Origin: a virus
Taxonomy: Duplodnaviria; Caudoviricetes
Virus record (IMG/VR): IMGVR_UViG_3300030372_001749
Coordinates: 1-59,518 of that record
DNA: 59,518 nt
Strand: one strand, 5' to 3'
Positions 5,885 through 32,500 of this stretch are shown here, one piece after another. Made by a program: the position numbers and the translations under genes. Position 1 is the stretch's first letter, and each line of letters starts with the position of its first letter. The notes beneath the pieces were generated by a model. That model did no database searches. It was not told the DNA's origin and saw nothing but the letters and a program-made list of their open reading frames with translations.

Positions 5885-6091
5885 CTATCTTTTTTTACAA
5901 CCAAAGTTATTAGCGTAGTTCGCCATCTTCATTACCTTTTCAGAATACTTTTTCTTATTCTTCATTACAGCAGAAGCAGCACTACAAGCATCTTTGAATC
6001 CGTTATTCTTAGCCCACTTAGTAAAAGCACCTTGTCGAGATTCTTTTATCTCTGGAAACTTTTCTTTCTTAGTTCTTCCTTTCGTTGCCAT
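5885..6091 (-). CDS. Small basic protein (GAFTKWA...ANYANN type)
   Basis: ORF track; K-rich. Confidence 0.7.
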   Translation of the reverse strand: MATKGRTKKEKFPEIKESRQGAFTKWAKNNGFKDACSAASAVMKNKKKYSEKVMKMANYANNFGCKKR

Positions 6092-7177: not shown

Positions 7178-7636
7178 ATGATAGAGAGAGACTACAAGTT
7201 CAACCCAGGGTACGACTATATGAAATACTGGAGGGTTATACGCTACTGGGCGAAGGCTAAGTACAAGATAGGTACACCCGATATAGATATGCTATTCTTC
7301 CTATACAGCGAACAGATTTTTAACAAGACAAAGTTTAAGGAGTTTGAACAGTGCATGTCGTGGGATGAACCAAGATTTCATAGGCTTCTAAAGGAAGGAT
7401 GGATACATGTTTGGCGGAAGAAGGCCGGGAAAGAGACAACACTATACGAGCTGTCCTATAAAGGTAAAAGACTTGTTACCGCACTATACCAAAAACTAAA
7501 CGGGGAGGAGATTGGTGAAAGCCCATCTATGAACCCACTATTTAGACACGATGCATCTTATATGGATAAGGTCTACCGTAATATGATTATAGAGATGAAT
7601 AAGTTTATAAAACAACAACGACACTCCGCTCAGTAA
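7178..7636 (+). CDS. Winged-helix (MarR-like) putative regulator
   Basis: RLLKEGWI...LYELSYKGKRLV wing pattern; lone plus-strand gene in the late arm. Confidence 0.6.
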   Translation: MIERDYKFNPGYDYMKYWRVIRYWAKAKYKIGTPDIDMLFFLYSEQIFNKTKFKEFEQCMSWDEPRFHRLLKEGWIHVWRKKAGKETTLYELSYKGKRLVTALYQKLNGEEIGESPSMNPLFRHDASYMDKVYRNMIIEMNKFIKQQRHSAQ

Positions 7637-7862
7637 TCACCGTATACGGATTATCCTCGATTAACATCTCGTGACTACCCGACTCATCGTAGTAGATGAT
7701 GTCACCATCGTCTATTACCTCAACATCGGTACCCGACTTTACAACCTCGCCTTTCTTATATCGAAACTCCGAAGCATCTTGAGCAGATAGTAATAACCCA
7801 GACTCTGTCTTTAACTCTTCCTTAATCTTTTTAATTATAATATATTTTCCTATTGGCTTCAT
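7605..7862 (-). CDS. groES: Co-chaperonin GroES (Cpn10)
   Basis: MKPIGKYIII...KTESGLLL...GEVVKSG...GDIIYY; near groEL. Confidence 0.88.
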   Translation of the reverse strand: MKPIGKYIIIKKIKEELKTESGLLLSAQDASEFRYKKGEVVKSGTDVEVIDDGDIIYYDESGSHEMLIEDNPYTVITERSVVVVL

Positions 7863-8002
7863 TCTTCAAAATCATTTTCAACAACAATATGTAAACTAAC
7901 TAGCGGTAAGTACAACGCATGGGTAGTAAATCCTATATCGTGATAAGACCTCATCCCTATAACTATCCCTGGATAAAACCCAACGTTTACTTCAAAGCTC
8001 AT
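7859..8002 (-). CDS. 47-aa hypothetical (MSFEVNVGFYPGIVIGMRSY...)
   Basis: Read manually; ATGA overlaps on both sides. Confidence 0.55.
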   Translation of the reverse strand: MSFEVNVGFYPGIVIGMRSYHDIGFTTHALYLPLVSLHIVVENDFEE

Positions 8003-8142
8003 CTTACGTTTAATGGTATTGTCTTAGTTAACCAATCCTCAAAAGAAATATTTACAGGTATAAACCCTTTTCTTTTAAAAGATATATAATATCCCCATTC
8101 TTGTTGGCGTTGTTCTTTGGTTAATAGTTTACTTGCTTTCAT
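7999..8142 (-). CDS. 47-aa hypothetical (MKASKLLTKEQRQQEWGYY...)
   Basis: Read manually; ATGA overlap with groEL stop. Confidence 0.5.
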   Translation of the reverse strand: MKASKLLTKEQRQQEWGYYISFKRKGFIPVNISFEDWLTKTIPLNVR

Positions 8143-9710
8143 TCTTTTCTTGCGTGTGTTATAATTGCATTAGTAGTTAGGATAGTTGTAGCAACACTGA
8201 TTGCGTTTGTCAATGCCTGTGTCGTAACCTTCGCTGGGTCTACTACACCCATCTCAAACATATCGCCATACTCTCCTGTTACCACGTTATACCCTTCATT
8301 CTTTTTTAACTTCTTGTCATAGATACTAGCACTATCCAAACCAGCGTTCTTTAAAATCTGTGCTAGTGGGGCACGAAGCGTGTCACGCAAAATTTTATTT
8401 TTAGTACTATCGCCTTTATATTTCTTAGCTAACCTATCTAGTAATAACCCACCACCAGCAACAATACCCTCTTGCAGAGCTGAACGTACCGCACATACCG
8501 CATCATCTACCCTATCGAACTTTTCTTTCTGCTCAATATCAGAGGTAGCACCAACGTATATACAACCTATACCTCCTACTAAACTTGCAATGCGTTCATT
8601 GACAAATTCACGCTCCGCCTTGTTTGTTAATCTCTCCTGTTGCTCACGCAACTCCTCAACCCTCTTAGTAATCTCATCGGTAACCTGGTTATCTTTGATA
8701 ATGATTGTAGAGTCTTTACCTACGATAATCTTGTCTGCATATCCTAGGTCCTCCATACGGATTAGTGACAGGTCATCGCCCGTACTCTCCGAGAAGTATT
8801 TAGCCCCAACAGATAATGCAATATCCTGCATCAGCTCGTGAGAACGGTAACCAAAAGAAGGAACTAAGATGTTACAGAACTTTAAACCGTTTCGCTGAAC
8901 GTTAGCAGCAAGCGTGTTGATAACGTTCCCCGAACAATTCCCAATGATAAGTAACTTCTCGCCACCATTAATGATTGGCTTGAGCACATTCTCAATCTGC
9001 AGGATGTTAGTAATCTCGGTATCACATACCAATATCTTTACACCATCGAGTATACACTCATCCTTACGGTGGTCATTGATAAACATCGGTGAGGTATATC
9101 CCCTATCAACCTTTATCCCATTAGTAACCTCCGCATAGGTCTTGTCGGTTTGTGAACGCTCAACAGTAACAATACCATCATGACCAACCTTTCTATACGC
9201 ATCCGCTATAATCCCGCCAATCTCACTATCGTTATTGGAAGAGATAGTAGCAATATCCTCTAGCATATCATCCGTAACCTCAACAGACTCCTTAGCAATG
9301 TCTGCTAAAAGTTTATCTCCCTCCTTACGAATCTCTCGTACCACCTGTATCGTATTCTCGTTCTCACCAATGTGAGACTCTCCAGCTTTTACCAAAGCCT
9401 CGGTCAATACAATAGCGGTAGTAGTTCCATCACCCGCAGTGTTCGCTGTCTTCTCTGAAGCCTGCTTCATCATACGAACCGCTAAGTTCTCTACAGGGTC
9501 CATTAAGAAAACAGACTTAGCAACCGTTACACCATCCTTGGTAACAGTCAACCCTTGTGTATGTTCACCTGATTCAATTAACACCGTCTGGCCTTGAGGC
9601 CCTAGTGTGCTCTTTACAGCGTTGGAGATTTTTGAGATGCCTGATATTAACTTCTCCCTAGCATCGTCATCGAAAGATAGGTCTTTCGGAATGTACCCTT
9701 GTTCGTTCAT
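8139..9710 (-). CDS. groEL: Chaperonin GroEL (Cpn60)
   Basis: TLGPQG, VTKDGVTVAK, AGDGTTTA, GIVAGGG, GVVDPAKV. Start set at MNEQG, downstream of promoter 9735-9742. No GGM tail. Confidence 0.97.
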   Translation of the reverse strand: MNEQGYIPKDLSFDDDAREKLISGISKISNAVKSTLGPQGQTVLIESGEHTQGLTVTKDGVTVAKSVFLMDPVENLAVRMMKQASEKTANTAGDGTTTAIVLTEALVKAGESHIGENENTIQVVREIRKEGDKLLADIAKESVEVTDDMLEDIATISSNNDSEIGGIIADAYRKVGHDGIVTVERSQTDKTYAEVTNGIKVDRGYTSPMFINDHRKDECILDGVKILVCDTEITNILQIENVLKPIINGGEKLLIIGNCSGNVINTLAANVQRNGLKFCNILVPSFGYRSHELMQDIALSVGAKYFSESTGDDLSLIRMEDLGYADKIIVGKDSTIIIKDNQVTDEITKRVEELREQQERLTNKAEREFVNERIASLVGGIGCIYVGATSDIEQKEKFDRVDDAVCAVRSALQEGIVAGGGLLLDRLAKKYKGDSTKNKILRDTLRAPLAQILKNAGLDSASIYDKKLKKNEGYNVVTGEYGDMFEMGVVDPAKVTTQALTNAISVATTILTTNAIITHARKE

Positions 9711-9744: not shown

Positions 9745-9957
9745 AAAAATCTTTACATATATAAAATGATATTATGACAATTTTTAAAATCTCTATTTGT
9801 ATATATATATTTACTATTATATATATTATTTTTTTATTTATAAAATTAGTTTAAAATTAACATATCGACATAAATTAATATAACTATACTGAAAACTAAG
9901 AAGTTATGAAAAATGACTTCGACATAATTTCGACATTACTATGTCAACTTGTGTCAT
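9745..9957. other. AT-rich origin-like region A with TYRACAT iterons
   Basis: Non-coding, AT-rich core; TTAACATATCGACATAAA, TTCGACAT twice, inverted ATGTCAA. Confidence 0.5.
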
Positions 9958-10229: not shown

Positions 10230-10378
10230 TAAAATTTTTTCAGATATCTGGAAGTAAAGGGTTCTACGCCGCCATACGCAACCGACCCCCCATTTAAAAG
10301 TAGGGGGGGCTATGACTTTGTTTAGGCAATTCCCAAATTTTTTCTGCAACTTTTTACCTTTTTTCCTACAGCCCTTGT

Positions 10379-10480
10379 CCTAGCTAGGCTATAGCTGTTG
10401 TGCTACGTAGCTACCTAGCTTTGTCGCTGTTGTCCTAGCTGTAGCTCTAGCTATTTACCTAGTACTAGCTGTAGCTGTGC
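10379..10480. repeat. Short-repeat array (nine TAGCT in about 100 bp)
   Basis: Counted directly; in the non-coding strand-switch region. Confidence 0.85.
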
Positions 10481-10499
10481 GATTATTATCTACTATACA

Positions 10500-10515
10500 G
10501 TCTCGTTAACGAGAC
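10500..10515 (+). repeat. GTCTCG-N4-CGAGAC palindrome, copy 1
   Basis: GTCTCGTTAACGAGAC. Confidence 0.9.
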
Positions 10516-10683
10516 CTTCAAAACATTACGAGACGTAAAGAGGGAAGGCTATATGCCCCCAATGAACAAAAGAATAACAAACAAAAGACCAAATCTTAAA
10601 AAAAATTTCCCTTACTACCATTGGGATACAGAGCAAAATGTAAATTAATTTAAAAAACTGCATTGTAGAACGGATAATTATAC

Positions 10684-10691
10684 TATCTTTG
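10684..10691 (+). promoter_or_regulatory. First early promoter, -7 element TATCTTTG
   Basis: TAnnTTTG with an upstream TTG at about -33. Confidence 0.7.
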
Positions 10692-10695
10692 AACT

Positions 10696-11622
10696 ATGAA
10701 AGCACAAACAATGTACGAAAATATTGCTAACTCGCTGATAGTCAGTAAGTTAGGCCATAAGGCTTGTGTAACTAGCTGTTTATCAGCACAAAACGAAAAA
10801 AAGGCTGATATCAGCACAAATCAATTAATTATGAGTAATGTAACTGTTAACAAATCAGAAGGTTTATTTTTAAACGGTACAGTAGTAAAGAAAGCTATCA
10901 ATAAGGAGGCTGTTCTAGAACATTTGAATATGGCGCAAAAATGTGTAAATGAGAAATTTCGTCAAGAGGTTGAGGCATCAAATCTAATAGCTGATGCTTA
11001 TGCTTGGTTTACATCTAAGAAGTCAGAGGCACAGCGTACGAAATACGCTATCAAATGGACAAAAGAAGAGTTTGGTCAGAAGGCATTTGGCTTATCTAAA
11101 GCACAATTCTACAAGAAGGATGCACTAGGTAAGACAGCTTTAGAAGTTGTTGAAGGTTTTATTACTGCTGATATAACGGTAAGAATGAACGGTCTAAAAC
11201 ACAGTTTATCAATTGAGGCGTGTAACAAATTCACTAACCAATATGTGGTTAAGGATGTAACAAAAATGACTAAGAAGGAAGCAAAAAAATGTATTTCAGA
11301 TGCGATAGCGAAATACGTTGAAGATGCTAAAAACGGTAAGCTATCTAAGGCTAAGGCAAAAGGTAAGTCTGATGCTAAGGATAAGGCTAAAGGTAGTAAG
11401 AATCGTATTACTGTATCGATGTCTAAGTACGGTGGTGACAAAGGAATGTCGCTAAACATAGACAAAGACGGTAAGCTACAAGCGATGACGCCAAACGTAG
11501 ATAAGAAGATGGCGACAAAGCTGATTACTGACCTAGCGAAAGCGTTCAAGGATGCGGGTATCTTCGCTGATGGTAAAGTACCAAGTGAAGTGAAGGCTAT
11601 ACTAGAAACGGTTAAGCTATAG
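10696..11622 (+). CDS. First early protein, Lys/Ala-rich, possible DNA-binding (alternative start 10831)
   Basis: HTH-like TKEEFGQKAFGLSKAQFYK and a basic linker. ATG 10696 would be leaderless; ATG 10831 has a typical A-rich context. Confidence 0.75.
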   Translation: MKAQTMYENIANSLIVSKLGHKACVTSCLSAQNEKKADISTNQLIMSNVTVNKSEGLFLNGTVVKKAINKEAVLEHLNMAQKCVNEKFRQEVEASNLIADAYAWFTSKKSEAQRTKYAIKWTKEEFGQKAFGLSKAQFYKKDALGKTALEVVEGFITADITVRMNGLKHSLSIEACNKFTNQYVVKDVTKMTKKEAKKCISDAIAKYVEDAKNGKLSKAKAKGKSDAKDKAKGSKNRITVSMSKYGGDKGMSLNIDKDGKLQAMTPNVDKKMATKLITDLAKAFKDAGIFADGKVPSEVKAILETVKL

Positions 11623-11630
11623 GAAAAAAT

Positions 11631-11658
11631 GCGAGGGTCTCGTCAGCGAGACCTTCGC
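11631..11658 (+). repeat. Palindrome copy 2 with extended stem
   Basis: GCGAGG-GTCTCG TCAG CGAGAC-CTTCGC. Confidence 0.9.
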
Positions 11659-11659
11659 T

Positions 11660-11708
11660 CCTTACTAGGATGTGTATCCTAGCTGATGATTCCAAAAGGA
11701 TGAAAAGG
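11660..11708 (+). ncRNA. Hammerhead ribozyme, type III
   Basis: CCTTA^ CTAGGAT-GTGT-ATCCTAG CTGATGA T TCC-AAAA-GGA T GAAA AGG. Core CUGAUGA/GAAA and stems I-III present; predicted cut after A11664. Confidence 0.8.
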
Positions 11709-11733
11709 TAACTAAAAATTAAAATTTATTGAA

Positions 11734-11907
11734 ATGAAAAAATTAAATTGGGGAACGTGGTTGTGTATAATCACAGCTGTGTTAAGTATTATTGGAATGT
11801 GTATCTGCGATTGTGTAGATATCAATATGGAAGGGATATTTGCATTAACTACGCTGGCTTCAATCTTTGGAATTATAGCGTCTATGATGGAGGCTGAAGG
11901 ATATTAA
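11734..11907 (+). CDS. 57-aa two-TM membrane protein
   Basis: Read manually: MKKLNWGTWLCIITAVLSIIGMCICDCVD...FALTTLASIFGIIASMMEAEGY. Confidence 0.65.
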   Translation: MKKLNWGTWLCIITAVLSIIGMCICDCVDINMEGIFALTTLASIFGIIASMMEAEGY

Positions 11908-11919
11908 AATTATAAATCA

Positions 11920-11945
11920 GCAGGGTCTCGTCAGCGAGACCTTGC
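11920..11945 (+). repeat. Palindrome copy 3 with extended stem
   Basis: GCAGG-GTCTCG TCAG CGAGAC-CTTGC. Confidence 0.9.
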
Positions 11946-11959
11946 ATAAACCAAAACAA

Positions 11960-12196
11960 ATGAAAACAATTATTAAAACAGTAGTATGTTTAACGATAGC
12001 TTTCACTAGCTACGGACAAACAAAAAAAGACAGCGTGACAATTGATAGATTCCAAGTACAAGAAATCTTAAACACGATTGAGGATTTAATAGAATGGAAT
12101 AAAGAAGATGAGTTTAATGGCCAAGAACCTAGAACGAATGAAAACTATTGGTTAGGTAAAATGAGAGATGAATTAATTAATGAACTAAAAAAATAG
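11960..12196 (+). CDS. Exported small protein (signal peptide)
   Basis: MKTIIKTVVCLTIAFTSYG-Q resembles a Bacteroidota SPI signal with Gln at +1. Confidence 0.65.
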   Translation: MKTIIKTVVCLTIAFTSYGQTKKDSVTIDRFQVQEILNTIEDLIEWNKEDEFNGQEPRTNENYWLGKMRDELINELKK

Positions 12197-12198
12197 GT

Positions 12199-12345
12199 AT
12201 GAGAGAAGAAGAATATTACGACACATTACTTTTGTGTAGTGGCTTTACACAAGAACAAATAAATGATATGTCAGACGAGGACAAAGAAATGAATTTAGGA
12301 ATGTTATACAATGCTATTCATTGTGCGTTTTTTAAAACTAGATAA
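12199..12345 (+). CDS. 48-aa acidic hypothetical
   Basis: Read manually; fills the gap between ORFs. Confidence 0.45.
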   Translation: MREEEYYDTLLLCSGFTQEQINDMSDEDKEMNLGMLYNAIHCAFFKTR

Positions 12346-12346
12346 T

Positions 12347-12538
12347 ATGGAATTTAAACCTAATGAAATGTATTACTGTACAGTAAAGTACGGTGGTACG
12401 GGTGGAACGTATTCCACATACGAGAAAATTTTTAAGAGTGAGTCTCACTACCTTAATTGGTGTACGTTTATGATGCGTAACTACGGTGGAAAGGTATTGG
12501 AGATTAAACATCATTCAGAAATTTTAAAAAATAAATAG
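12347..12538 (+). CDS. Hypothetical early protein
   Basis: ORF track, start moved to MEFKP. Confidence 0.6.
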   Translation: MEFKPNEMYYCTVKYGGTGGTYSTYEKIFKSESHYLNWCTFMMRNYGGKVLEIKHHSEILKNK

Positions 12539-12545
12539 CAAACTA

Positions 12546-12577
12546 TTTGGATATGTGCAATAAATGTATAATATTTG
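12546..12577 (+). promoter_or_regulatory. Early promoter (TTTG-N20-AATATTTG)
   Basis: Similar to promoters at 13341-13363 and 15156-15186; one mismatch to TAnnTTTG. Confidence 0.6.
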
Positions 12578-12602
12578 TACAGATTGATTTAGTGCTGAGG
12601 TA

Positions 12603-12674
12603 GACCATTGAACATTAGGTTGTTATGTAGAGCGATACTACCAATGGTCACGATAAGGGTCTCGTTGACGAGAC
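12603..12674 (+). ncRNA. tRNA-like three-way junction plus palindrome copy 4 (element 1)
   Basis: P1 GACCATTG/CAATGGTC; P2 AACA-TTAGGT-TGTT; P3 GTAG-AGCGATA-CTAC; then GTCTCGTTGACGAGAC. Confidence 0.65.
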
Positions 12675-12700
12675 AAGTATTAATAAATAAACAAACCAAT

Positions 12701-12874
12701 ATGAAAACAATTTTAATTACAATCAGTTTAGTAATTGCATACGGAAGTTATGCAAACGATAATGTCAAAGAAGTTGATGTTATAGAGTATAGAAAAAAGA
12801 AAAGAAAAAAGAAAAAGAAAAAAGGATGTTACAATTCTAGAAGAAGATGGGATAAAAAATATTATATGAAATAA
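12701..12874 (+). CDS. Signal-peptide protein with poly-Lys tail
   Basis: MKTILITISLVIAYGSYA...RKKKRKKKKKKG. Confidence 0.6.
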   Translation: MKTILITISLVIAYGSYANDNVKEVDVIEYRKKKRKKKKKKGCYNSRRRWDKKYYMK

Positions 12875-12886
12875 AAATAAAATAAA

Positions 12887-13309
12887 ATGAGAACAAATAA
12901 TAAAAAAGTACGTGAGAACGTAAGGAAGCATATCCTGGAGAGTATGCACGATTATAATGAAGAAAGTTTTAAAAGTTTTGATGATGCTAGAGAATATCTA
13001 GTAAAAGAATTTATAAGGGTTTACAATCATCAATACAATAAAAATAGATGGCCAAACAATCAAGATAGGTTTCAAAATTATCTAATGGGAATAGTGTTTA
13101 ATTTTAAGTTTACTGATTATGATATTGAAAAGTTTCTAAATGGATTAGGTATAAATCCAAAAGAAAAGAAATATACAGGCGAACAAATGTGGCGAATGTA
13201 TGCCTATCTAATTTGGCGAGAAATACAAGAAACCTATGATGAAATAATTTATATAGAACACAAATCTAAAATGAGGATGGTATCTAGTTATGTGGAATCA
13301 GAATTTTAA
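12887..13309 (+). CDS. Hypothetical early protein
   Basis: 140-aa ORF with A-rich start context. Confidence 0.75.
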   Translation: MRTNNKKVRENVRKHILESMHDYNEESFKSFDDAREYLVKEFIRVYNHQYNKNRWPNNQDRFQNYLMGIVFNFKFTDYDIEKFLNGLGINPKEKKYTGEQMWRMYAYLIWREIQETYDEIIYIEHKSKMRMVSSYVESEF

Positions 13310-13340
13310 ACTAAAAATAATTGAATGAGAACTTTTTAAT

Positions 13341-13363
13341 GTATAATTAATGTATTATATTTG
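13341..13363 (+). promoter_or_regulatory. Early promoter (-7 TATATTTG)
   Basis: GTATAATTAATGTATTATATTTG, near-identical to 15164-15186. Confidence 0.65.
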
Positions 13364-13382
13364 TAGAAAGTTAGTAATAATA

Positions 13383-13454
13383 CTACCATTGAACATAGGA
13401 TGTGAAGCAGAGCAAAACTGACGATGGTAGCGATAAAAGTCTAGTCGACTAGAC
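13383..13454 (+). ncRNA. tRNA-like three-way junction plus palindrome copy 5 (element 2)
   Basis: P1 CTACCATTG/CGATGGTAG; P2 ACA-TAGGA-TGT; P3 CAG-AGCAAAA-CTG; then GTCTAG TCGA CTAGAC. Confidence 0.65.
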
Positions 13455-13478
13455 AAGTATTAATAAAATAAAATAGAT

Positions 13479-13631
13479 ATGAAAAAAGAAATAGAACAGT
13501 TAATTAAATTGATAATTAATCCTATACACCTACAAGATAGTGATAGTGAGGATTATATATCTGATGCAGAAATGGTAGAGATAGTATTAAAAAAATTAAA
13601 AGAGATTGTTAATTATGATGAACACAAATGA
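13479..13631 (+). CDS. 50-aa hypothetical
   Basis: Read manually (MKKEIEQLIKLIINP...). Confidence 0.55.
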   Translation: MKKEIEQLIKLIINPIHLQDSDSEDYISDAEMVEIVLKKLKEIVNYDEHK

Positions 13632-13849: not shown

Positions 13850-13880
13850 GTCTCGTTGACGAGACCTAATATAAATAAAA
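13850..13880 (+). repeat. Palindrome copy 6 within a 31-bp repeat identical to 16586-16616
   Basis: GTCTCGTTGACGAGACCTAATATAAATAAAA. Confidence 0.9.
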
Positions 13881-14862: not shown

Positions 14863-14880
14863 GGTCTCGTTGACGAGACC
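14863..14880 (+). repeat. Palindrome copy 7
   Basis: GGTCTCGTTGACGAGACC. Confidence 0.9.
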
Positions 14881-15119: not shown

Positions 15120-15155
15120 TTGATGAATATATTTTTAAAATAATTACACAACAGC

Positions 15156-15186
15156 TTGTATATGTATAATTAATGTGTTATATTTG
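15156..15186 (+). promoter_or_regulatory. Early promoter TTG-N20-TATATTTG
   Basis: Fits the Bacteroidota -33/-7 consensus. Confidence 0.7.
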
Positions 15187-15215
15187 TACATAATATTAAC
15201 AATAAAAAAACAATT

Positions 15216-15663: not shown

Positions 15664-15689
15664 GTGGGGTCTCGTCAGCGAGACTCCAC
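15664..15689 (+). repeat. Palindrome copy 8 with extended stem
   Basis: GTGGG-GTCTCG TCAG CGAGAC-TCCAC. Confidence 0.9.
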
Positions 15690-16585: not shown

Positions 16586-16616
16586 GTCTCGTTGACGAGA
16601 CCTAATATAAATAAAA
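16586..16616 (+). repeat. Palindrome copy 9
   Basis: Identical to 13850-13880. Confidence 0.9.
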
Positions 16617-17517: not shown

Positions 17518-17811
17518 ATGAAGAAAGAAGCATTCAATAATTATGCTGAGGCAATAGCACAGCAGTTTCATTTAAGCTTAGATAGTTTATTTGAAAAGAC
17601 AAAGAAGCGTGAGATAACAGACGCAAGACAACTGTTATACTATCTGTGTATGGAGAGACCAATTAGGATAAGTTATATCCAAAGATTCTTAGAGGATAAC
17701 GGGTACTCGGTGGCTCACAGTACAATCATTCATGGCTACAAGAAAGCTAAGGAGTTGATTGATAGCGACCAGGATTTTAAAGATATAGTCAAGAAGATTC
17801 AAGATGTATAG
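17518..17811 (+). CDS. DnaA C-terminal (domain IV)-like HTH protein
   Basis: KTKKREITDARQLLYYL...HSTIIHGYKK. Confidence 0.75.
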   Translation: MKKEAFNNYAEAIAQQFHLSLDSLFEKTKKREITDARQLLYYLCMERPIRISYIQRFLEDNGYSVAHSTIIHGYKKAKELIDSDQDFKDIVKKIQDV

Positions 17812-20250: not shown

Positions 20251-20285
20251 AGAGAAAGGGTCTCGTTGACGAGACCTTTTCTTTT
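20251..20285 (+). terminator. Palindrome copy 10 built into a terminator-like hairpin
   Basis: AGAGAAAGG-GTCTCG TTGA CGAGAC-CTTTTCTTTT. Confidence 0.7.
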
Positions 20286-20289
20286 GCTT

Positions 20290-20452
20290 ACCTTATGTTG
20301 ATATGTCGATTTCAAATGATTCTTATATAGCTTATATATTTTTCTTATTTATATATATATTTTTATTTATTTATTTATTTATTTATTAACATATTAACAT
20401 AAAGAATATAGAAGTACTATAAATACTAGAAAGTAAGTAACATAAAATCAAC
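20290..20452. other. AT-rich origin-like region B with TYRACAT iterons
   Basis: ATGTTGATATGTCGA, then (TTTA)n, then TTAACATATTAACATAAA; upstream of the primase. Confidence 0.55.
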
Positions 20453-24701: not shown

Positions 24702-25002
24702 TGTAACAGATGATTTTGTAGATGGACTACAAGAATTAGATATAAGAACAGGAATAAAAATTGCAAGGTTTATTAACGAGAACCTAGGTAAAGTAAAGAC
24801 TAACGAACTAGTTTCTACAGTGTTAGGTGGTGTTGTTATGAATGACCAGGATGAACCAATCACTTTTGCATTAGAGGTTATAAAAGATACCTCGTCTCAA
24901 CCATTACTATCGGATATACAGTTGGTAGATATGGATGAGTTTTTAGATTTACTTAACTTAAATAAAAAAACAAATGGATTCAATCAAGGTAAGGACAGTT
25001 AA
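24664..25002 (+). CDS. Hypothetical protein
   Basis: ORF track. Confidence 0.6.
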   Translation: MDVKQKYTTELFDVTDDFVDGLQELDIRTGIKIARFINENLGKVKTNELVSTVLGGVVMNDQDEPITFALEVIKDTSSQPLLSDIQLVDMDEFLDLLNLNKKTNGFNQGKDS

Positions 25003-25432
25003 ATATATTGTCGGTAAAAAATTAAACTTAGATTTAAATAAGACAAGTCGTAAGTTTGAATATGTAAAGGCACGAATGATGTGCTATAAAATTTTACGAG
25101 AGCAGTGTAACTTTTCCTTAGCAGACATAGGAAGATACTTTAAAAAAAATCATGCTACCGTTTTACATTCTCTAAAAGAATTTGAGGCAGTATGTATCTA
25201 CGATAAAAAATTTAAGGAAGATTATAAAGAGGTGGAGAAAATGTGGTGTGACCCCGAGCGTGAAGAGACGGGAGGAATAAGCACTGTATTTAAGTTAGAT
25301 ATTAACGATGCTTTAAAAAAATTAAACATGGAATGTGCTTATTTATCTAATGCTGTAGAAAGATTGATGCATAATATGAACACCCTTCATAAAGAAATAA
25401 AAGAAAAATATTTGGAATTAGAAAAAAAATAA
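24974..25432 (+). CDS. Second DnaA C-terminal-like HTH protein
   Basis: SRKFEYVKAR...SLADIGRYFKKNHATVLHSLK. Confidence 0.78.
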   Translation: MDSIKVRTVKYIVGKKLNLDLNKTSRKFEYVKARMMCYKILREQCNFSLADIGRYFKKNHATVLHSLKEFEAVCIYDKKFKEDYKEVEKMWCDPEREETGGISTVFKLDINDALKKLNMECAYLSNAVERLMHNMNTLHKEIKEKYLELEKK

Positions 25433-26562: not shown

Positions 26563-29500
26563 TTATTCTCTCTCTATAAATTCTTCTTCCTCAAACTCTA
26601 CATCATCAAACTCTGGTGATATATCTTCTTCTATAAATTCTTGCTCTTCAAATTCCATTCCTTCATCGTCACCCGAATCTTTATCTTTTTTAGATTTCTT
26701 CTTACTTGCGGATTTCTTTCCAGCTCCAGGTCTGTAAGACTTAGATATTCCTAGTAAATCATACATACTCTCTTCAAAGTCTTCAGTGTCCGAGCCTATC
26801 CCTAAATTAAATAAACCAATAAAAGGGTCTACTCGTGTGCCTAATATTATTTCTGTTATAGGTTTAACGCTACCCCATATGTTTCCATATTTTTTTACAT
26901 CCTTAGTAAGTTGGTATCCTACACTTAGAAAAGGATTGATTATAGCATTATTAAATTTACGTTTTTTCTTGTATTCTTTTTCGGAGTCTAGTCCTGCAAT
27001 AAGTCGTTCAAATAAATCCCACTCTTCTATAGCTGCTCCTAGTACTGGCATTTGATATACAAGGTTAGCACCCATTAATGCTTTTTGAACCTTCTCCCAA
27101 TATTCTTCCTGGTCTTCATCATCACCCATTAATAGTTTACTTAGATTAGACACTCCAATAAACAAAGCATTTGCTATTGCTACATTTAAATAGAAAGCCC
27201 TGATATCTTTTCGTCTAGGTTTCTCACCCTGTTTAATACTACGCATAATGTTTGTCATACTAGACAACGCTTTATTTATCTGTAAGAAAACCACACTACC
27301 AAACATAGTGAAGGTACGTGTGAGATAATTTTTACTTAGTTGTATCGGTGCTTTTTCTGTACCTCTTCGGGTTTGCTGAGTAGCGTTATAGTTATTTAAT
27401 TTTGTTACTGCCTCGTCTAGTGGCATACCATTTTTAATATCTCTATTAAAGTTTACCATGTATCCCATAACTCCAAGTATATCTCCTATACTTGTTGGTA
27501 ATCCAGCCGCAGTCTTAAAACCTCTACCTATAATACCCGCTCTATTCATCTTTTGACTTACAGGTTTAAATAAACTTTGACCTGACTCTAAGGCATATAT
27601 CTCTCCTTTCATACCCTTCTCTATCCTATCTCTAAAGGTAGCAGATACATCCATAGCCTTACGTATAGGACCTTTAACGCCAGGCACCACCATACCAATT
27701 ATATCTTTAGTTATTCCTGCATACGTAGAAGCCACATCTACTGTAAACATTAATGGGTCTATTAATGTACGGACTGCAGCAGGTACGTTAGAACCTTTCT
27801 TAAAAAAGCTATAGTCCTCATAAGCATTCACAAAAGATGTAGCCTGCTTAGGTATCTGTACTATTTTAAATGCTAACGAGAAACCAATAAACCTATTCTG
27901 CATCCAATTTAAAAATTTATTATCTATTATCTCTTTAGATAAAGCATAAGGGTTAACCGTATTATTAATTGTAATGTTTAATACTTTTCTAATTTGTAAT
28001 CTATTTATTAGATTAGACACATCATTATTCTTCATGAATGCATTAATATTACTAACGGGAATAGCATATGCTTTGTATTTCTCCATACTCATCACATGGT
28101 TTTCTAGGGTTTGTGTAAAGTCAGAAGCTGTAAGTTTTATATCAGACTCTTTATCTACCCTGGCCTTAAAAGCAGGAGCTGTTTCAGCTTGAAAAATAGA
28201 ATTAAACTCACCTTGTTTAACCATATCTTTAGTAACATCACCCCGTTCGGTCTGAGTAGGAAAGTAGTTATCTATCTTTGGTAGGTTAATATTATTTATA
28301 CTAGAGTATACATTGTTTACCCCTTCATAGTAAGAGTTACTCAAGAACTCTACTAACCCATCCGTAAACTCTACAATCTCCTTACCTAGTATCTCTTTTA
28401 TTTCAGCTATCTTCTTATCATCAATCCCCTGCTTTTCAAGCTTCGCTCTTTGAACATCATTTAAGCTTAAAGCATAGATACGCATAAGCTCATCTGGTGT
28501 AAAGTCTATTTTTTCTACATTATCTGTATCAGTATTTTTTACTCGGAAGGAATAAGTTTTATTTTTTCCTTTAAATAATAATCTTTTTATACCGTTATAA
28601 CCTTCTTTAACACCCACTCGTTTAGCGATATCATCTATCTTAGCACGTGTTTCAAATGCCCCTTTCAACTCTTGTTCATTAGCGTTATTTAAACTATCAT
28701 ATATTACTTTTCTAAATACATTCAACCCTTTAGTAGCATTATCTAGTAGATTAGTAAGTGTACCAAGATGTCTGAACTGATTTTTAGCAGTTTCTATACT
28801 ACTACTCACTCTACTATAATTAAACAGTTTCGTAAATTGTTTCCATCCCTTCACAAACTTTCCTTGTCTAAAAGCTTTGTATATATCTTTACGTCTTTGA
28901 TTAAATTCAGTGTCATTTAATATTTTTCCATCTTTATTATATAGCTCAGGATTAGTATCCTTTATCTGCTCACTAGCCTCCTCATTTATTTTCTTTCTTC
29001 TTTCTGCTCTAACTTCTTTGTTTATCTTAAGCTGTGCACGTGAGTCTTTTGCTGTGTCTTGTAGTGTTTTAATTATAGATTTAACTTCTTCTAAACTTTT
29101 TTCTTGGATACCTTCCAATAAGTCTAGAGCTACCAACGTATTTAAATCTTTTTGTTCATCTACTGTAAGCGTTTCTTTTAAAATAATTTCATCTATCTCC
29201 GCTTGCCTATCTAAGAAGTCCTGTTTTAGTTTCTCAATCTTATCTATATCTCCATCTAATATTATTTTAAGGATAGGTTTCATATCTTTAAAAAATTGTA
29301 TACCTTCTTTATCTAACTTACCTTTACTTCTTATATTTCCACTAGAAGTTTTTTTGGTTGTTGTATTATTTTTTACAAAGATTCGTATATCGTTTATTAG
29401 CTTGCTTTTTATTTTCTTTTCTTGAGTTTTTACTTTCTCTATAATCTTATCTACCTTCACTGCAAAGTTAGCTGGAGTAGTTGTCTCTATATCTTTTATA

Positions 29501-32500
29501 AAACTATTAATCTGAGCTACACTATACCCTAAGTCTTTAGGTAGGCTGGCTCTAATAAACTGTCTAAGCTCTCTCTGTTTAGTTCTAATAGTTTTGTCTG
29601 TAATCTTTATCTGCTTAAGGTTTCTTTTAATATTTTCTAACTCTTTTCGTACAGACTTTTCTCTAAACCTAACACCTAGATTTTCTTTTAGATTATTCTG
29701 GAAACCAAGTATAATCTTTTGCTGTGTCTCGTTAGATTGTTTTTTGTATATAGGGTTTTCTTTTATAATCTCTAACGCCTTAACCTGTATTTCTTTAGGG
29801 GTTTTGGTTCTAACACCTGGCTTACCTTTACCTCCACGTGGACCTTGTATAGCAAACTTAGACACCTTATCCATGGTGTCTTGATATAATTTAATAGCTT
29901 GAGTTATACCTCCTTCTATACCCATAAATTCTTTTGGTAAAGTATCTTGATAATTAAAAGGTTCTACTTGATTAAGAATCTTAAACTCCATTGCTTCATT
30001 TATATCCTTGAGTTTAAATTTCTTTTCTTTTAATACCTCTATGATAGCCTCATCAGAATAATTATTATCTCTACCTATCTTTATAACCTGGTCTATAGTA
30101 TTACTAGATGGGGTACTCATAAGTTGTAATGCGTCTGAGAAAGATTTAACCTCAGCCTCTACAAACAACTCGTTCTCTGATAGCAGGTCTACTGCTACAG
30201 ACTCTACGAACTCCTCAAATGTCATGTTCTGCAACTGCTCTGCAGTAACCTTAGATATACCAACTAACTTTTTAACGTAGTCAAATAAATCTTTTAACCA
30301 TGTCTTGAAACTTCTCTCCTGTGCAGCAGTAGCAAAAGCTTCTCCTTGGTCACCGATAGCTGTAGCTAATGCCTCCTCTCTGATGTATTTATTTATCTCC
30401 TCCTCAGTAGAGCCATCCTTACGCATCTTTTTTATTACTCGCTGATAATCTGCATTATCTTTTATCTGCTGTATATAGTCGGAGTTCTCTACTAGCTCCA
30501 TACCTTTCTTGTATAGCTCAGGTCTTCCTTCCTTTACAGTGTTCAACCATATGTGACCAAACTCATGCACTGGTGTATTAAAGTTTTCTAATGCAGGATT
30601 AAGAAATAGCTTGCCCTCGTATACTGCACCATATATCTTTTGGTTTTTAGTAGATAAAGCCTTAGCATTTAAATCTTTTAGTAGTGCATCGAACTCTTGT
30701 TCTGTAGCTACAATCTCTACAGAAGGGAATGCTTTAGATAGCTTACGCACAAACTGTGTGTACTGAACAGCGGTAGGCTCGGTAACCTCAAAAGCTGTCG
30801 ATGCCTTCATTGTTGCTGAACGATATGCATTACTTCGTGCTTCCTTAGCAGTTATCTTTTTATCTATATCCTTTATATCTTTTATATTCCCAAACTTCTT
30901 AGTAATAAGAGTAGTAGTTTTTGTCTTGGTACTTTTTGGTATTACCTCTGAACTCTCCTCTTTATTTGTCTCACCTTTTTTTATTAAGGTTACAGTACGA
31001 GTCTTGTTAGGATTATTAGAAACCTTCACTACTCTTTCTTCACCATCTATATCTACCTTATAAGTCTCTCTCTTTTTAATAAGACCTGCAGTTTTTAGGT
31101 CTATAGTATTCTTATAGTTCTTGTTAAGATTCCAGAACGGAACTGTCTCCTTCATTATACCTATTGCCTTACCTCTAATATATATTGGGTAGTTGGTATG
31201 AGATGGTAGACCTTCTGCCTTCTGTTGCTCTGGTGTTATTAATGCCTCACTTCTAGTAGCTTTTGTTATAGGGTTACCCTTCTTATCTGTAACCTGTAGC
31301 ACTGTAGTTATGGCACCCATAGGTAGGTCACTTACAAACTGCTCTACATTCTCTTGTCTAATAGACTCCTGGCTTATACCTTTATCTTGAAAAAGCTTAC
31401 CAACCTTTGTGTCAGCCTTAACATCTGCAGATGGTAACACAGCCTTGAATATCTTTGCTCTATCGTCCACACCTAACTCTGCAAATCCCTCAGCAAACTC
31501 ATCTATATTCTTAGACTCCTGTATCTTTTTATTTGTCTTAATTTTTTTACCTAACACATCTTCCTTCATAGCCTCAAAAATCTCAACAGAGTTATCCGCT
31601 GTCTTAACCTTTTCAATTAATGTGTTAAGGTTAACAGTGTTAGAATCTAAGGCAGATGGTTTCATATTAAAGACCACAGTGTAGTCTCCTTTTATTGCAC
31701 CATCTATAATCTTATTAGCAGCAGTCGTATCAATAGAAGCCCATGCAACCTTACCAAACAATGAATCCATCAAAGGAAAGAAAGGGCCTCCCATTTGTTT
31801 AGGTTTACCCTCTTTATCTAAAGCCTTTTCATCTACCTTTAACTGGTCAGCCATCACAAGATTTATCTTCTTGCCTACCAATTCTTTTAGACCCATCTTC
31901 TTTACCTTGTTCGCTAGCTCTGTATTCTCTGTAATAGTTATAGGTATAACATTAGCTGGAGCTGGTTCGTCTACTACCTCTGCTTTCTCTTCTAACTCAG
32001 GAAGCTTCTCATTCATCTTTGCTTGAGCCGCCTTAACTAATGAGTTCATCTTCTCTTCTGATACAGTCTTCCCATCTAACTGAAGCTGTACGGTAGCATC
32101 ATTATTTAAAACCTCGATTAAATCGGAAGCTTCTTTTTTTATTAAAACCTCCTTTTGATGTAGCCCTTCTGCAAATTTTTGTACACTAGCCTTACTAGTC
32201 TTTTGCTTATTAGCTACCATTCTTTTCTTAGCCTCTCTTTTGTAGGCTGTTTTTTGTTTAGGAGTTAGGTCAACAAACTCTTCTACTACTTCCGTCTTAA
32301 GGATTTCTGTCGGCGTTTCTTGAACACCTTTTTCAATCTCTGCTTCGGTCGTACCTTCTCCGGTAGTGATGATGGATTCGGTGTCTCCTTCAACCACTGG
32401 TCCACCCACTGTGGTTTGTTCTTCCTCAACCACCTCAGTTGGGCCTTGCTTTGTACTGGCATCTTCTTCAGTTTTAATTAATGAATCTTTATTTATTTCT

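What the first reader, a model, noticed from the sequence alone, without database searches (positions are those of the whole stretch)
11631..13470. Candidate RNA-encoded processing system for early mRNA (ribozyme, tRNA mimics, shared hairpin)
Seen: within 2 kb, three copies of the GTCTCG hairpin sit directly beside another structured RNA. One is just 5' of a hammerhead; two are just 3' of tRNA-like junctions. The genes downstream include a 2-TM protein and signal-peptide proteins. Inference: the phage cuts its early transcript into protected units using self-cleavage and host tRNA-processing enzymes, with the hairpin guarding the new ends. I know of no description of this combination, but could not search.
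Basis: inference. Interest (0 to 1): 0.85.

Follow-up and report, generated by a model that had tools for sequence, protein, structure and literature searches.

The report
Hammerhead ribozyme and hairpins punctuating phage genes
This marine phage carries a real self-cutting hammerhead RNA sitting right behind a strong hairpin, and the same hairpin recurs between its early genes, but the supposed tRNA look-alikes are not tRNA-like; the idea that phages cut long messages with such ribozymes is already in print.

Summary
The window is a complete 59.5 kb phage related to Flavobacterium phages. The hairpin is real and more frequent than reported. There are 9 exact copies of GTCTCG-N4-CGAGAC plus 1 compensated variant, all intergenic, all in the rightward early block at 10.5-20.3 kb.

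The "hammerhead" at 11660-11708 is genuine. It is a type III hammerhead. A covariance model built from 117 viral-contig hammerheads, with the window left out, hits it at 71 bits (E 3e-19). Rfam alone misses it. Its U.U at positions 10.1/11.1 is shared by 34 of 95 distinct family members.

A GC hairpin directly 5' of the cleavage site recurs in a relative (5 of 5 hammerheads) and in 15 of 72 family members. Other relatives place type I hammerheads, which end in a GC-rich stem III, at the same stop-to-start positions.

The two "tRNA-like junctions" are paralogous three-way-junction leaders. They get no tRNA call, and their role is unknown.

Clustered phage hammerheads were described in 2011. What may be new is the hairpin-ribozyme module and the hairpin-only copies that evolve in concert and lie at cassette breakpoints.

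The parts
11631..11658 (+). 12-bp GC-rich RNA hairpin (core 11637-11652, loop UCAG, one G.U) ending 6 nt before the predicted hammerhead cut
   Evidence: Pair list and energy; member of the 10-copy family.
11660..11708 (+). Type III hammerhead ribozyme, U10.1.U11.1 subtype; predicted cleavage between 11664 and 11665
   Evidence: R3 model built without the window: 71.0 bits, E 2.9e-19. Homologues with compensatory changes in Elemovirus and L039. The hammerhead fold scores -33.3 against an MFE of -33.5 kcal/mol.
11920..11945 (+). Hairpin copy (11-bp stem) between ORF 11734-11907 and ORF 11960-12196, with no ribozyme beside it
   Evidence: no hammerhead model hit here.
12523..12581 (+). First copy of a 3-copy repeat (also 13309-13367 and 15132-15190) ending in a TAnnTTTG-like box; possible host-type promoter
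   Evidence: Repeat family D4. The promoter reading rests on a recalled Bacteroidota consensus, and the strict two-box pattern is not enriched.
12585..12700 (+). Leader 1: three-way junction whose third helix is the family hairpin (core 12659-12674); precedes the ORF starting at 12702
   Evidence: Fold z -2.46; paralogue of leader 2; no Rfam or ARAGORN hit.
13309..13367 (+). Second copy of the promoter-like repeat
   Evidence: D4.
13365..13480 (+). Leader 2: paralogous three-way junction ending in the compensated hairpin variant (core 13439-13454); precedes ORF 13479-13631
   Evidence: Fold z -3.33; near-identical orthologue in close relative L227.
10500..10515 (+). Hairpin copy (loop UUAA) in the 960-nt gap before the first rightward gene
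13850..13865 (+). Hairpin copy, 1 nt after a stop codon and 26 nt before the next ATG
14863..14880 (+). Hairpin copy followed by AAGUAUUAAC, 27 nt before the next ATG
15664..15689 (+). Hairpin copy with an 11-bp stem including one G.U; the orthologous site in L227 carries the GTCTAG/CTAGAC core
16586..16601 (+). Hairpin copy, 2 nt after a stop codon and 17 nt before the next ATG
20257..20288 (+). Last hairpin copy, the only one followed by a T-rich run; terminator-like end of the early block
   Evidence: Sequence; weak ctRNA-terminator-like alignment.
11535..11619 (+). Weak hammerhead-like stretch inside the 3' end of ORF 10696-11622 (core reads CUGAUGG); probably a relic or chance
   Evidence: R3: 16.3 bits, E 0.028.
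10696..11622 (+). First rightward ORF (308 aa, no family match); its mRNA would end at the hairpin after self-cleavage
11734..11907 (+). 57-aa ORF with two hydrophobic segments; first cistron of the 3' cleavage product

Best explanation
The stretch is the start of the rightward early operon of a Flavobacteriia-type podophage. Its transcripts are punctuated by RNA structures.

Shown by sequence and comparison:
(1) 11660-11708 is a type III hammerhead of a large viral subfamily.
(2) A family of 10 sense-strand RNA hairpins occupies the gaps between early genes.
(3) One hairpin lies 6 nt 5' of the hammerhead cut site, and this hairpin-hammerhead module is repeated in a relative.
(4) In other relatives the same stop-to-start gaps hold type I hammerheads, which cut directly after their own GC-rich stem III.

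Inferred:
- During transcription the hammerhead cuts between 11664 and 11665.
- The upstream mRNA (308-aa ORF) is left with a 12-bp hairpin and a 2',3'-cyclic phosphate at its 3' end, which should slow 3' exonucleases.
- The downstream mRNA starts with a 5'-OH inside the stem I hairpin, which should slow 5'-end-dependent decay.
- The nine hairpins without a ribozyme act as 3' stabilisers or weak pause/termination points of the individual cistrons. The copy at 20260, followed by a U tract, is the operon terminator.

The hairpins are kept alike within each genome and sit at cassette breakpoints, so they also serve as recombination joints for shuffling small early genes. The two three-way-junction leaders are not tRNA mimics. 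They are most simply structured 5' or intercistronic leaders that reuse the hairpin, possibly decayed type I hammerheads.
For: Hammerhead:
- The independent model R3 (117 hits from 100 IMG/VR loci, window excluded) gives 71.0 bits, E 2.9e-19. The next hit in the window scores 16.3 bits.
- On that family alignment 96.7% of cells pair, and 12 of 14 pairs show changes on both sides. 0 of 500 shuffles reach the covariation score.
- Compensatory changes in all three stems separate the window copy from the Elemovirus copy.
- U.U at 10.1/11.1 occurs in 34 of 95 distinct members, against G-C in 47.
- Rfam Hammerhead_3 scores canonical members of the same family at 37-47.5 bits, E 1e-7 to 1e-4.
- The hammerhead fold lies within 0.2 kcal/mol of the MFE.

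Hairpins act as RNA on the + strand:
- Outer stem extensions differ between copies but stay paired (11631-11658, 11920-11945, 15664-15689).
- Four copies extend through G.U, which would be A.C on the other strand (by eye).
- One in-genome compensated variant exists (13439).
- Core variants GTCTCG, GTCTAG and GTGTCG in four genomes all keep pairing.
- The orthologous site 15669 has switched core in L227.
- UCAG loops read in the sense of the flanking genes in the window (3 of 3). In G001 this holds for the 7 UCAG copies in the rightward block and for the 2 minus-strand copies I checked (45740 and 38566, the latter with one mismatch).

Module:
- In G001, 5 of 5 type III hammerheads follow a GC hairpin that ends 5-6 nt before the cut. 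Four use the family hairpin.
- In the wider family the figure is 15 of 72, against controls of 1 of 71 and 6 of 69.

Positional equivalence:
- All 32 type I hammerhead hits in 22 of 82 related loci are on the + strand. The median distance from stop codon to ribozyme start is -1 nt (27 of 29 within 40 nt). The median distance from ribozyme end to the next ATG is 26 nt (22 of 32 within 40 nt).
- Seven of the 10 window hairpins lie 17-27 nt before the next ATG.

Shuffling:
- The L227-versus-window alignment is mosaic, with many block ends at hairpin or repeat edges.
- Metagenome contigs show variants that skip 11910-12189 and 12523-13434.
Against: - No cleavage, RNA end or half-life was measured. 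The two RNA runs held only low-depth contigs and did not cover the hammerhead.
- Rfam's curated hammerhead models do not report the window copy at all.
- The 10.1-11.1 pair is a U.U mismatch and stem III has only 4 pairs. Perreault et al. rejected such mispairs by rule unless activity was shown, so the copy could be slow or dead.
- The R3 training set was gathered with a motif taken from the window and Elemovirus stem I, and aligned with a model that included the window. The test is therefore not fully blind, and the stem I pairs are partly fixed by the pattern.
- Only 1 of 10 window hairpins has a ribozyme beside it.
- MW202828 has 14 exact hairpins, no hammerhead, and 7 copies inside annotated CDS in two reading frames, including the primase gene. 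A simple 3'-end-guard role does not explain that.
- The exact sequence identity of the core within each genome is more than a purely structural role needs.
- The upstream hairpin is absent from the Elemovirus hammerhead and from 57 of 72 family members.
- The promoter reading of the 3-copy repeat is untested.
Confidence: 0.6

Rival explanations
1. The hairpins are chiefly recombination joints (PeSL-like cassette boundaries). They are multi-copy and uniform because early-gene cassettes are swapped and converted through them, and any RNA role (stabiliser, terminator) is secondary.
For: Within-genome uniformity exceeds between-genome orthology. The window has 9 GTCTCG and 1 GTCTAG. Its close relative L227 (93-97% identity in the long shared blocks) has 6 GTCTAG and 1 GTCTCG, including a switched core at the orthologous site. 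The gene order is mosaic, with block ends near hairpins or repeats. Strain variants lack hairpin+ORF or leader-to-leader segments. PeSLs are described in T4-type phages (PMC2839356 and PMC4122927; listing and abstract starts only).
Against: This does not explain the sense-strand G.U pairs, the fixed distance to the next start codon, the U-tract copy at the operon end, or the tight coupling to hammerheads in G001. It is compatible with the main explanation rather than exclusive of it.
Confidence: 0.3
2. The hairpin is the binding or cleavage site of a sequence-specific RNA-binding protein (phage or host: antiterminator, translational regulator or hairpin-specific endonuclease) that co-evolves with it. 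The hammerhead is only one of two ways to cut next to it.
For: The 6-bp core is invariant within each genome while loops and outer pairs vary. The core differs between genomes with both arms changed together. Hairpin-only sites lie 17-27 nt before start codons. There are copies inside coding regions in MW202828.
Against: No RNA-binding or RNase family was found among 20 window proteins scanned in Pfam, 10 of them also in PHROGs. Concerted evolution by recombination explains the uniformity without a protein. No candidate partner gene co-varies in what I examined.
Confidence: 0.15
3. The window's hammerhead is an inactive relic, and the region is processed, if at all, only by host RNases or simple termination.
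For: U.U at 10.1/11.1; a 4-bp stem III; no Rfam hit; a second, clearly degraded hammerhead-like stretch nearby; sister phage MW202828 has lost all hammerheads.
Against: All 11 core positions, the A15.1-U16.1 pair and H17 are intact. The U.U state is the second commonest in the family (34 of 95), with covarying stem II beneath it. The identical stem II occurs in type III copies in G001 and L138, and a near-identical one with the same U.U in a type I copy in L041.
Confidence: 0.2
4. The palindrome works on DNA, either as an operator for a dimeric regulator or as a single-strand DNA hairpin promoter for a virion RNA polymerase (N4-like).
For: Near-perfect 16-bp palindromes; copies inside genes in MW202828; two DnaA-type HTH proteins; an unassigned 3116-aa virion-region protein.
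Against: G.U-only stem extensions exist on the sense strand. Non-palindromic UCAG loops follow gene orientation. Compensated changes within single sites. In all 6 hairpin-hammerhead modules stem III starts 1-5 nt after the hairpin, so transcription must begin upstream of the hairpin. No RNA polymerase was identified.
Confidence: 0.05
5. The two junction elements are tRNA mimics cut by RNase P or RNase Z.
For: Multi-helix junction folds directly 5' of a hairpin.
Against: Three helices rather than a cloverleaf; ARAGORN 0 of 0; no tRNA or tRNA-like Rfam hit at E<=10; I saw no T-loop-like motif by eye. The 5' junction strands differ between the two copies.
Confidence: 0.02

Closest known systems
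Clustered hammerhead ribozymes flanking genes in prophages and phages (Perreault et al. 2011, PMC3088659; passages read)
   Same: Several hammerheads in one orientation between phage genes. The authors proposed that they cut long phage transcripts into gene-length mRNAs. One example (HHphage of haloviruses HF1/HF2) lies 13 nt before the first ORF of an early transcript.
   Different: Here only one ribozyme remains in the window. It is the U.U 10.1/11.1 subtype, which that study's filter rejected by rule. It is coupled to a repeated hairpin that also occurs alone. I could not see their supplementary alignment, which may already hold this subfamily.
Rfam Hammerhead_3 (RF00008), including plant virusoid/satellite hammerheads
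   Same: Same core, same type III topology and the same GGAUGUG..AUCC stem I hairpin. Tiny satellite-like records (L118, L136) and G001 copies score 37-47.5 bits with RF00008.
   Different: The window copy is not reported by RF00008 at any threshold tried. It sits in a double-stranded DNA phage operon, not in a circular RNA replicon.
RAGATH-1 hammerhead (RF03152) and type I hammerheads
   Same: Relatives of this phage carry type I hammerheads in the same gaps, and two score 30-35 bits with RF03152. Their stem III plus AGUAU tail resembles the window's hairpin plus AAGUAUUAA.
   Different: No type I hammerhead is left in the window. Descent of the hairpin from stem III is my inference.
PeSL promoter/stem-loop cassettes of T4-type phages (PMC2839356, PMC4122927; listing and abstract starts only)
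   Same: Repeated regulatory stem-loops between small early genes that coincide with insertion, deletion and swap boundaries.
   Different: A different phage group and host phylum. Here the repeat is a bare hairpin (plus three promoter-like repeats), and it is tied to ribozymes.
RNase III processing sites of the T7 early transcript (recalled, not checked here)
   Same: A polycistronic early RNA cut between genes, leaving a stabilising hairpin at the new 3' ends.
   Different: T7 uses a host enzyme on stems of about 20 bp. Here the stems are 6-12 bp, and at 11664/11665 the cut is made by the RNA itself.
RiboJ-type synthetic insulators (recalled, not checked here)
   Same: A hammerhead plus a hairpin placed before a coding region to make its expression independent of upstream sequence.
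   Different: RiboJ is an engineered part with the hairpin 3' of the ribozyme. Here the arrangement is natural and the hairpin is 5' of the cut.

Membership tests
Hammerhead ribozyme, type III (Rfam RF00008, clan CL00010) | Conserved core C3 U4 G5 A6 N7 G8 A9 and G12 A13 A14 | tested here: met
   CUGAUGA at 11683-11689 and GAA at 11702-11704; aligned to the family consensus.
Hammerhead ribozyme, type III (Rfam RF00008, clan CL00010) | A15.1-U16.1 pair and a cleavage-site nucleotide H17 that is not G | tested here: met
   A11705 pairs with U11663, and H17 is A11664.
Hammerhead ribozyme, type III (Rfam RF00008, clan CL00010) | Three helices around the core, stems I and II capped by loops, stem III open | tested here: met
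   Stem I 7 bp with a GUGU loop; stem II 3 bp with an AAAA loop; stem III 4 bp. Compensatory changes against Elemovirus in all three stems.
Hammerhead ribozyme, type III (Rfam RF00008, clan CL00010) | Standard base pair at 10.1-11.1 next to the core | tested here: not met
   U11690 opposite U11701. The same U.U occurs in 34 of 95 distinct family sequences, so it is a recurrent natural state whose activity is unmeasured.
Hammerhead ribozyme, type III (Rfam RF00008, clan CL00010) | Score at or above the curated Rfam gathering threshold | tested here: not met
   No hammerhead hit on the + strand at gathering or at E<=10, even on 161 nt. Canonical relatives also stay just below the threshold: 47.5 against 48.5 bits.
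Hammerhead ribozyme, type III (Rfam RF00008, clan CL00010) | Significant match to a family model built without the candidate | tested here: met
   R3: 71.0 bits, E 2.9e-19. Caveat: the training set was collected with a stem I motif shared with the candidate.
Hammerhead ribozyme, type III (Rfam RF00008, clan CL00010) | Site-specific Mg-dependent self-cleavage | not testable with these tools
   No raw-read RNA data over the site; the contigs do not cover it.
Hammerhead ribozyme, type I | Match to the type I model of the relatives (stem I open, stem III capped) | tested here: not met
   R1 with filters off over the whole window gives only spurious hits of 14 bits or less.
tRNA or tRNA-like RNase P/Z substrate | Cloverleaf or acceptor/T-arm mimic recognised by tRNA detectors | tested here: not met
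   ARAGORN finds 0 genes. No tRNA hit in Rfam at gathering or at E<=10 on 12540-13490. The folds are three-way junctions.
Intrinsic (rho-independent) terminator | GC-rich hairpin directly followed by a U tract | tested here: inconclusive
   Met on the + strand by 1 of 10 copies (20260, tail CTTTTCTTTT). The other nine are followed by A-rich or mixed sequence.
PeSL-like shuffling cassette boundary | Repeated regulatory stem-loops that coincide with insertion/deletion/swap breakpoints between close relatives | tested here: inconclusive
   One close relative (L227) and two metagenome variants show breakpoints at or near hairpins and repeats. No statistical test was made.
RNase III processing site (T7-type) | Double-stranded stem of about two helical turns | tested here: not met
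   The stems are 6-12 bp. The length requirement is recalled.

The most novel reading that the evidence does not exclude
A lineage of Flavobacteriia podophages runs a modular RNA punctuation system. One genome-specific hairpin marks every early mRNA boundary. The cut beside it is made either in cis by an attached hammerhead (type III behind the hairpin, or type I using the hairpin as its stem III) or, at the hairpin-only sites, in trans by a hairpin-specific factor that co-evolves with the hairpin sequence. The three-way-junction leaders would then be hammerhead-derived elements given a new role.
Probability: 0.15. Interest if true: 0.75.

Novelty: new variant of a known kind. Interest (0 to 1): 0.5.

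Why it matters
What hammerheads do in bacteria and phages is still called largely elusive (PMC6765202, passages read). This phage group offers a natural series with which to ask the question. One genome has 5 hairpin-hammerhead modules, the window has 1, and a sister genome has only hairpins. Many relatives carry type I hammerheads at the same positions.

Cultured Flavobacterium phages (Elemovirus) carry both ribozyme types. Whether self-cleavage plus a terminal hairpin sets the stability of individual phage mRNAs can therefore be tested at the bench.

The work also shows that Rfam thresholds miss a common U.U subtype of the type III hammerhead. At least one annotated phage 'gene' (Elemovirus gp66) overlaps a ribozyme on the opposite strand.

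Tried and rejected
**Rfam and other known RNA classes**
- Rfam at gathering on the window and on 7 relatives' loci found no ribozyme. It even misses canonical type I hammerheads in L017, so an Rfam negative is uninformative here.
- A passing resemblance of the leaders to the hairpin ribozyme, and to other known ribozyme classes, was not borne out: no Rfam hit at E<=10.

**The leaders**
- nhmmer with the two leaders against all fetched loci found no homologue outside the window.
- A leader motif scan of IMG/VR gave 5 loci. Only one (L227, a close relative) is a real copy.

**Hairpin searches in IMG/VR**
- The 18-mer hairpin scan gave 0 hits.
- The 16-mer scan gave 24 loci, of which 22 hold a single copy and are probably chance; L223 and L227 hold families.
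- R3 on L223 and L227 found no hammerhead.

**Promoters and terminators**
- The sigma-70 promoter scan was at chance level: 58 found against 56 expected.
- The strict Bacteroidota-like two-box pattern gave 6 matches against 3.3 expected, and none at the three repeats.

**RNA evidence**
- Two RNA runs held small shares as low-depth contigs. One contig spans 11988-12701, and none covers the hammerhead. This allows no statement on starts, ends or cleavage.

**Similarity and protein scans**
- megablast of 10-21 kb against GenBank phages found no match.
- Pfam (20 proteins) and PHROGs (10 of them) found no RNA-processing protein.
- The N4-like hairpin-promoter idea was considered and set aside; see the rival explanations.

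**Tool failures and errors**
- My first upstream-hairpin count mis-read minus-strand rows and was redone.
- My first energy evaluation used wrong stem coordinates and was redone.

**Limits of the literature check**
- I did not open any paper's supplementary files. Dataset S1 of PMC3088659 may already list this subfamily.
- My statements about what is or is not in print rest only. 'hammerhead' together with 'Flavobacterium phage' returned 0 papers.

Full report
**What the window is.** The genome search identifies the window as a whole virus record of 59,518 bases, rated 100% complete. GC skew and ORFs give a rightward block from about 10.7 to 26 kb, flanked by leftward structural and chaperonin genes. 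Family scans find a Sak-type annealing protein, a PDDEXK exonuclease, a primase, a helicase, a portal and a terminase. By primase similarity the nearest named records are MW202828.1 (63% identity) and Flavobacterium phages of the genus Elemovirus (44%). IMG/VR holds 232 relatives, of which I took the best 80.

**The hairpin.**
- GTCTCG-N4-CGAGAC occurs 9 times exactly and once as GTCTAG-N4-CTAGAC. All copies lie between 10,500 and 20,275, and there are none elsewhere.
- All ten lie between ORFs. Seven sit 17-27 nt before the next ATG, and six of those 1-17 nt after a stop codon.
- Only the last copy (20260) is followed by a T-rich run.
- The stems extend beyond the core by different but paired bases, reaching 12, 11 and 11 bp at 11631, 11920 and 15664. 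Four copies extend through G.U pairs, which exist only on the + strand.
- Relatives carry the same element with other cores that still pair. MW202828 has 14 exact GTGTCG..CGACAC copies. G001 has 11 exact copies and 6 with one mismatch. The close relative L227 has 6 GTCTAG..CTAGAC and 1 GTCTCG..CGAGAC.
- At the site orthologous to 15669, L227 has the other core.
- UCAG loops read in the sense of the flanking genes in the window (3 of 3). In G001 this holds for the 7 UCAG copies in the rightward block and for the 2 minus-strand copies I checked, one of which has a mismatch.
- I conclude that this is an RNA hairpin of the sense transcript, kept uniform within each genome.

**The hammerhead.**
- Rfam reports nothing for 11660-11708. 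Rfam also fails on textbook type I hammerheads in relative L017, so I built my own models.
- A pattern scan for type III architecture over the window and 82 loci found two hits, both on the + strand: the window site and one in Elemovirus. About 0.7 hits are expected in shuffled data.
- The two align with compensatory changes in all three stems and share the stem I hairpin.
- Model R2 found 117 hammerheads in 100 of those loci. On the resulting alignment 96.7% of cells pair, and 12 of 14 pairs change on both sides.
- Model R3, built from that alignment without the window, hits 11655-11715 at 71.0 bits, E 2.9e-19.
- The family corresponds to Rfam Hammerhead_3, which scores canonical members at 37-47.5 bits.
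- The window's one departure, U opposite U at 10.1/11.1, is shared by 34 of 95 distinct members. The hammerhead fold lies within 0.2 kcal/mol of the MFE.
- Caveat: the family set was gathered with a motif taken from the candidate, so the test is strong but not blind.

**The combination.**
- In the window the 12-bp hairpin ends at 11658 and the predicted cut follows 11664.
- In G001 (primase 63% and portal 70% identical to the window's) all 5 type III hammerheads in the early block follow a GC hairpin at the same distance. Four of them use the family hairpin.
- Across the wider family, 15 of 72 distinct copies have a perfect GC-rich hairpin within 55 nt upstream. Control windows give 1 of 71 and 6 of 69.
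- In 22 of 82 related loci the same gaps hold type I hammerheads: 32 hits, all on the + strand. In the 21-sequence seed alignment 14 of 17 pairs are compensated. These ribozymes start at the upstream stop codon and end a median 26 nt before the next ATG. A type I hammerhead cuts directly after its own GC-rich stem III.
- Three designs therefore give the same product, an upstream RNA ending in a stable hairpin. That is the basis for my inference of a 3' guard.
- The window has 1 type III and 0 type I hammerheads. MW202828 has neither.

**The 'tRNA-like junctions'.**
- 12585-12700 and 13365-13480 are paralogues (family D5). Each folds into a three-way junction whose last helix is the family hairpin.
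- Each follows one copy of a 3-copy repeat that ends in a TAnnTTTG-like box. I recall this box as the Bacteroidota -7 element, but the strict two-box pattern is not enriched.
- ARAGORN and Rfam find nothing tRNA-like or ribozyme-like there.
- No homologue exists in the 82 related loci. Only L227 has an orthologue.
- The sequence after the hairpin (AAGUAUUAA) and a GAUACU stretch in leader 1 recall the stem I strands of the relatives' type I hammerheads, but the catalytic core is absent. Descent from a hammerhead is a guess.
- A shortened, similar stretch lies near 10612-10690 (by eye).

**Shuffling.** L227 matches the window at 93-97% identity in its long shared blocks and 71-92% in the others, with changed order and content. 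Many block ends lie at hairpins or promoter-like repeats. Metagenome contigs show variants that skip 11910-12189 (hairpin plus ORF) and 12523-13434 (leader to leader). This resembles the PeSL cassettes of T4-type phages (listing only).

**What is known.** Perreault et al. 2011 reported hammerheads flanking genes in prophages and proposed processing of long phage transcripts. They showed cleavage of three tandem arrangements in vitro, and they rejected hits with 10.1-11.1 mispairs unless these proved active. A 2019 review still calls the bacterial roles largely elusive. I found no paper linking hammerheads to Flavobacterium phages.

**Verdict.** The hammerhead and the hairpin family are real, and their pairing is conserved. 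The tRNA part fails. The kind of system is known. The hairpin-ribozyme module, the hairpin-only paralogues that evolve in concert, and the common U.U subtype are, as far as my searches reach, new details. Activity and function remain inferred.

Noticed in passing
window 7605-9710 (- strand): Phage-encoded GroES-like (7605-7862) and GroEL-like (8139-9710) genes, judged from the translated N-terminus. The syntenic genes are annotated groES/groEL in MW202828 and Elemovirus.
   Followed up: partly
window 26563-35913 (- strand): A 3116-aa ORF next to the virion genes has no Pfam or PHROGs match at the thresholds used. Elemovirus has a 3694-aa gene at the matching end of its virion block, annotated only 'structural protein' (homology not tested). 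I did not test whether either hides a polymerase or ejection function.
   Followed up: partly
window 10360-10480, and 9794-9874 / 20346-20411: A run of CTAGCT-rich short repeats lies just before the first hairpin. Two AT-rich repeat blocks bracket the hairpin-bearing part (to 20.3 kb) of the early block (repeat finder families D6 and D7). They may be origin or regulatory arrays.
   Followed up: no
L006 5927-6034 (NC_055853.1 16030-16137): The annotated 35-aa CDS KNV11_gp66 lies on the strand opposite to all its neighbours and overlaps the type I hammerhead at locus 5962-6019. It is probably a mis-called gene.
   Followed up: partly
L015 (MW202828.1) 44264, 45144, 46522, 50740, 51271, 51768, 55154: Seven copies of the 16-nt palindrome (one with changes in the loop and last base) lie inside annotated CDS in two reading frames (peptides VSLTT and V[VA]ND[TM]). 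One lies in the primase, at a poorly conserved spot. This is unexplained by an intergenic RNA role.
   Followed up: partly
L145 30-84 and 463-521: A viral contig carries a type III hammerhead and, about 380 nt downstream, a twister-P5 ribozyme above the Rfam threshold (51.5 bits).
   Followed up: no
L118, L136, L165, L173: IMG/VR 'viral' records of 300-377 nt share the same hammerhead stem I motif. Two of them (L165, L173) also hold a hairpin ribozyme (75 bits). They look like plant satellite or virusoid RNAs.
   Followed up: no
window 17518-17811 and 24974-25432: Two small proteins carry the DnaA C-terminal helix-turn-helix domain (Pfam PF08299).
   Followed up: no
L017 16021-16094, L018 10370-10443: Relatives carry a tRNA gene downstream of the primase (Rfam 70-72 bits). 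The window has none.
   Followed up: no
L017 4104-4215: A 110-nt intergenic stretch in a relative folds strongly (-35.9 kcal/mol) and matches neither hammerhead model. It is unassigned.
   Followed up: no
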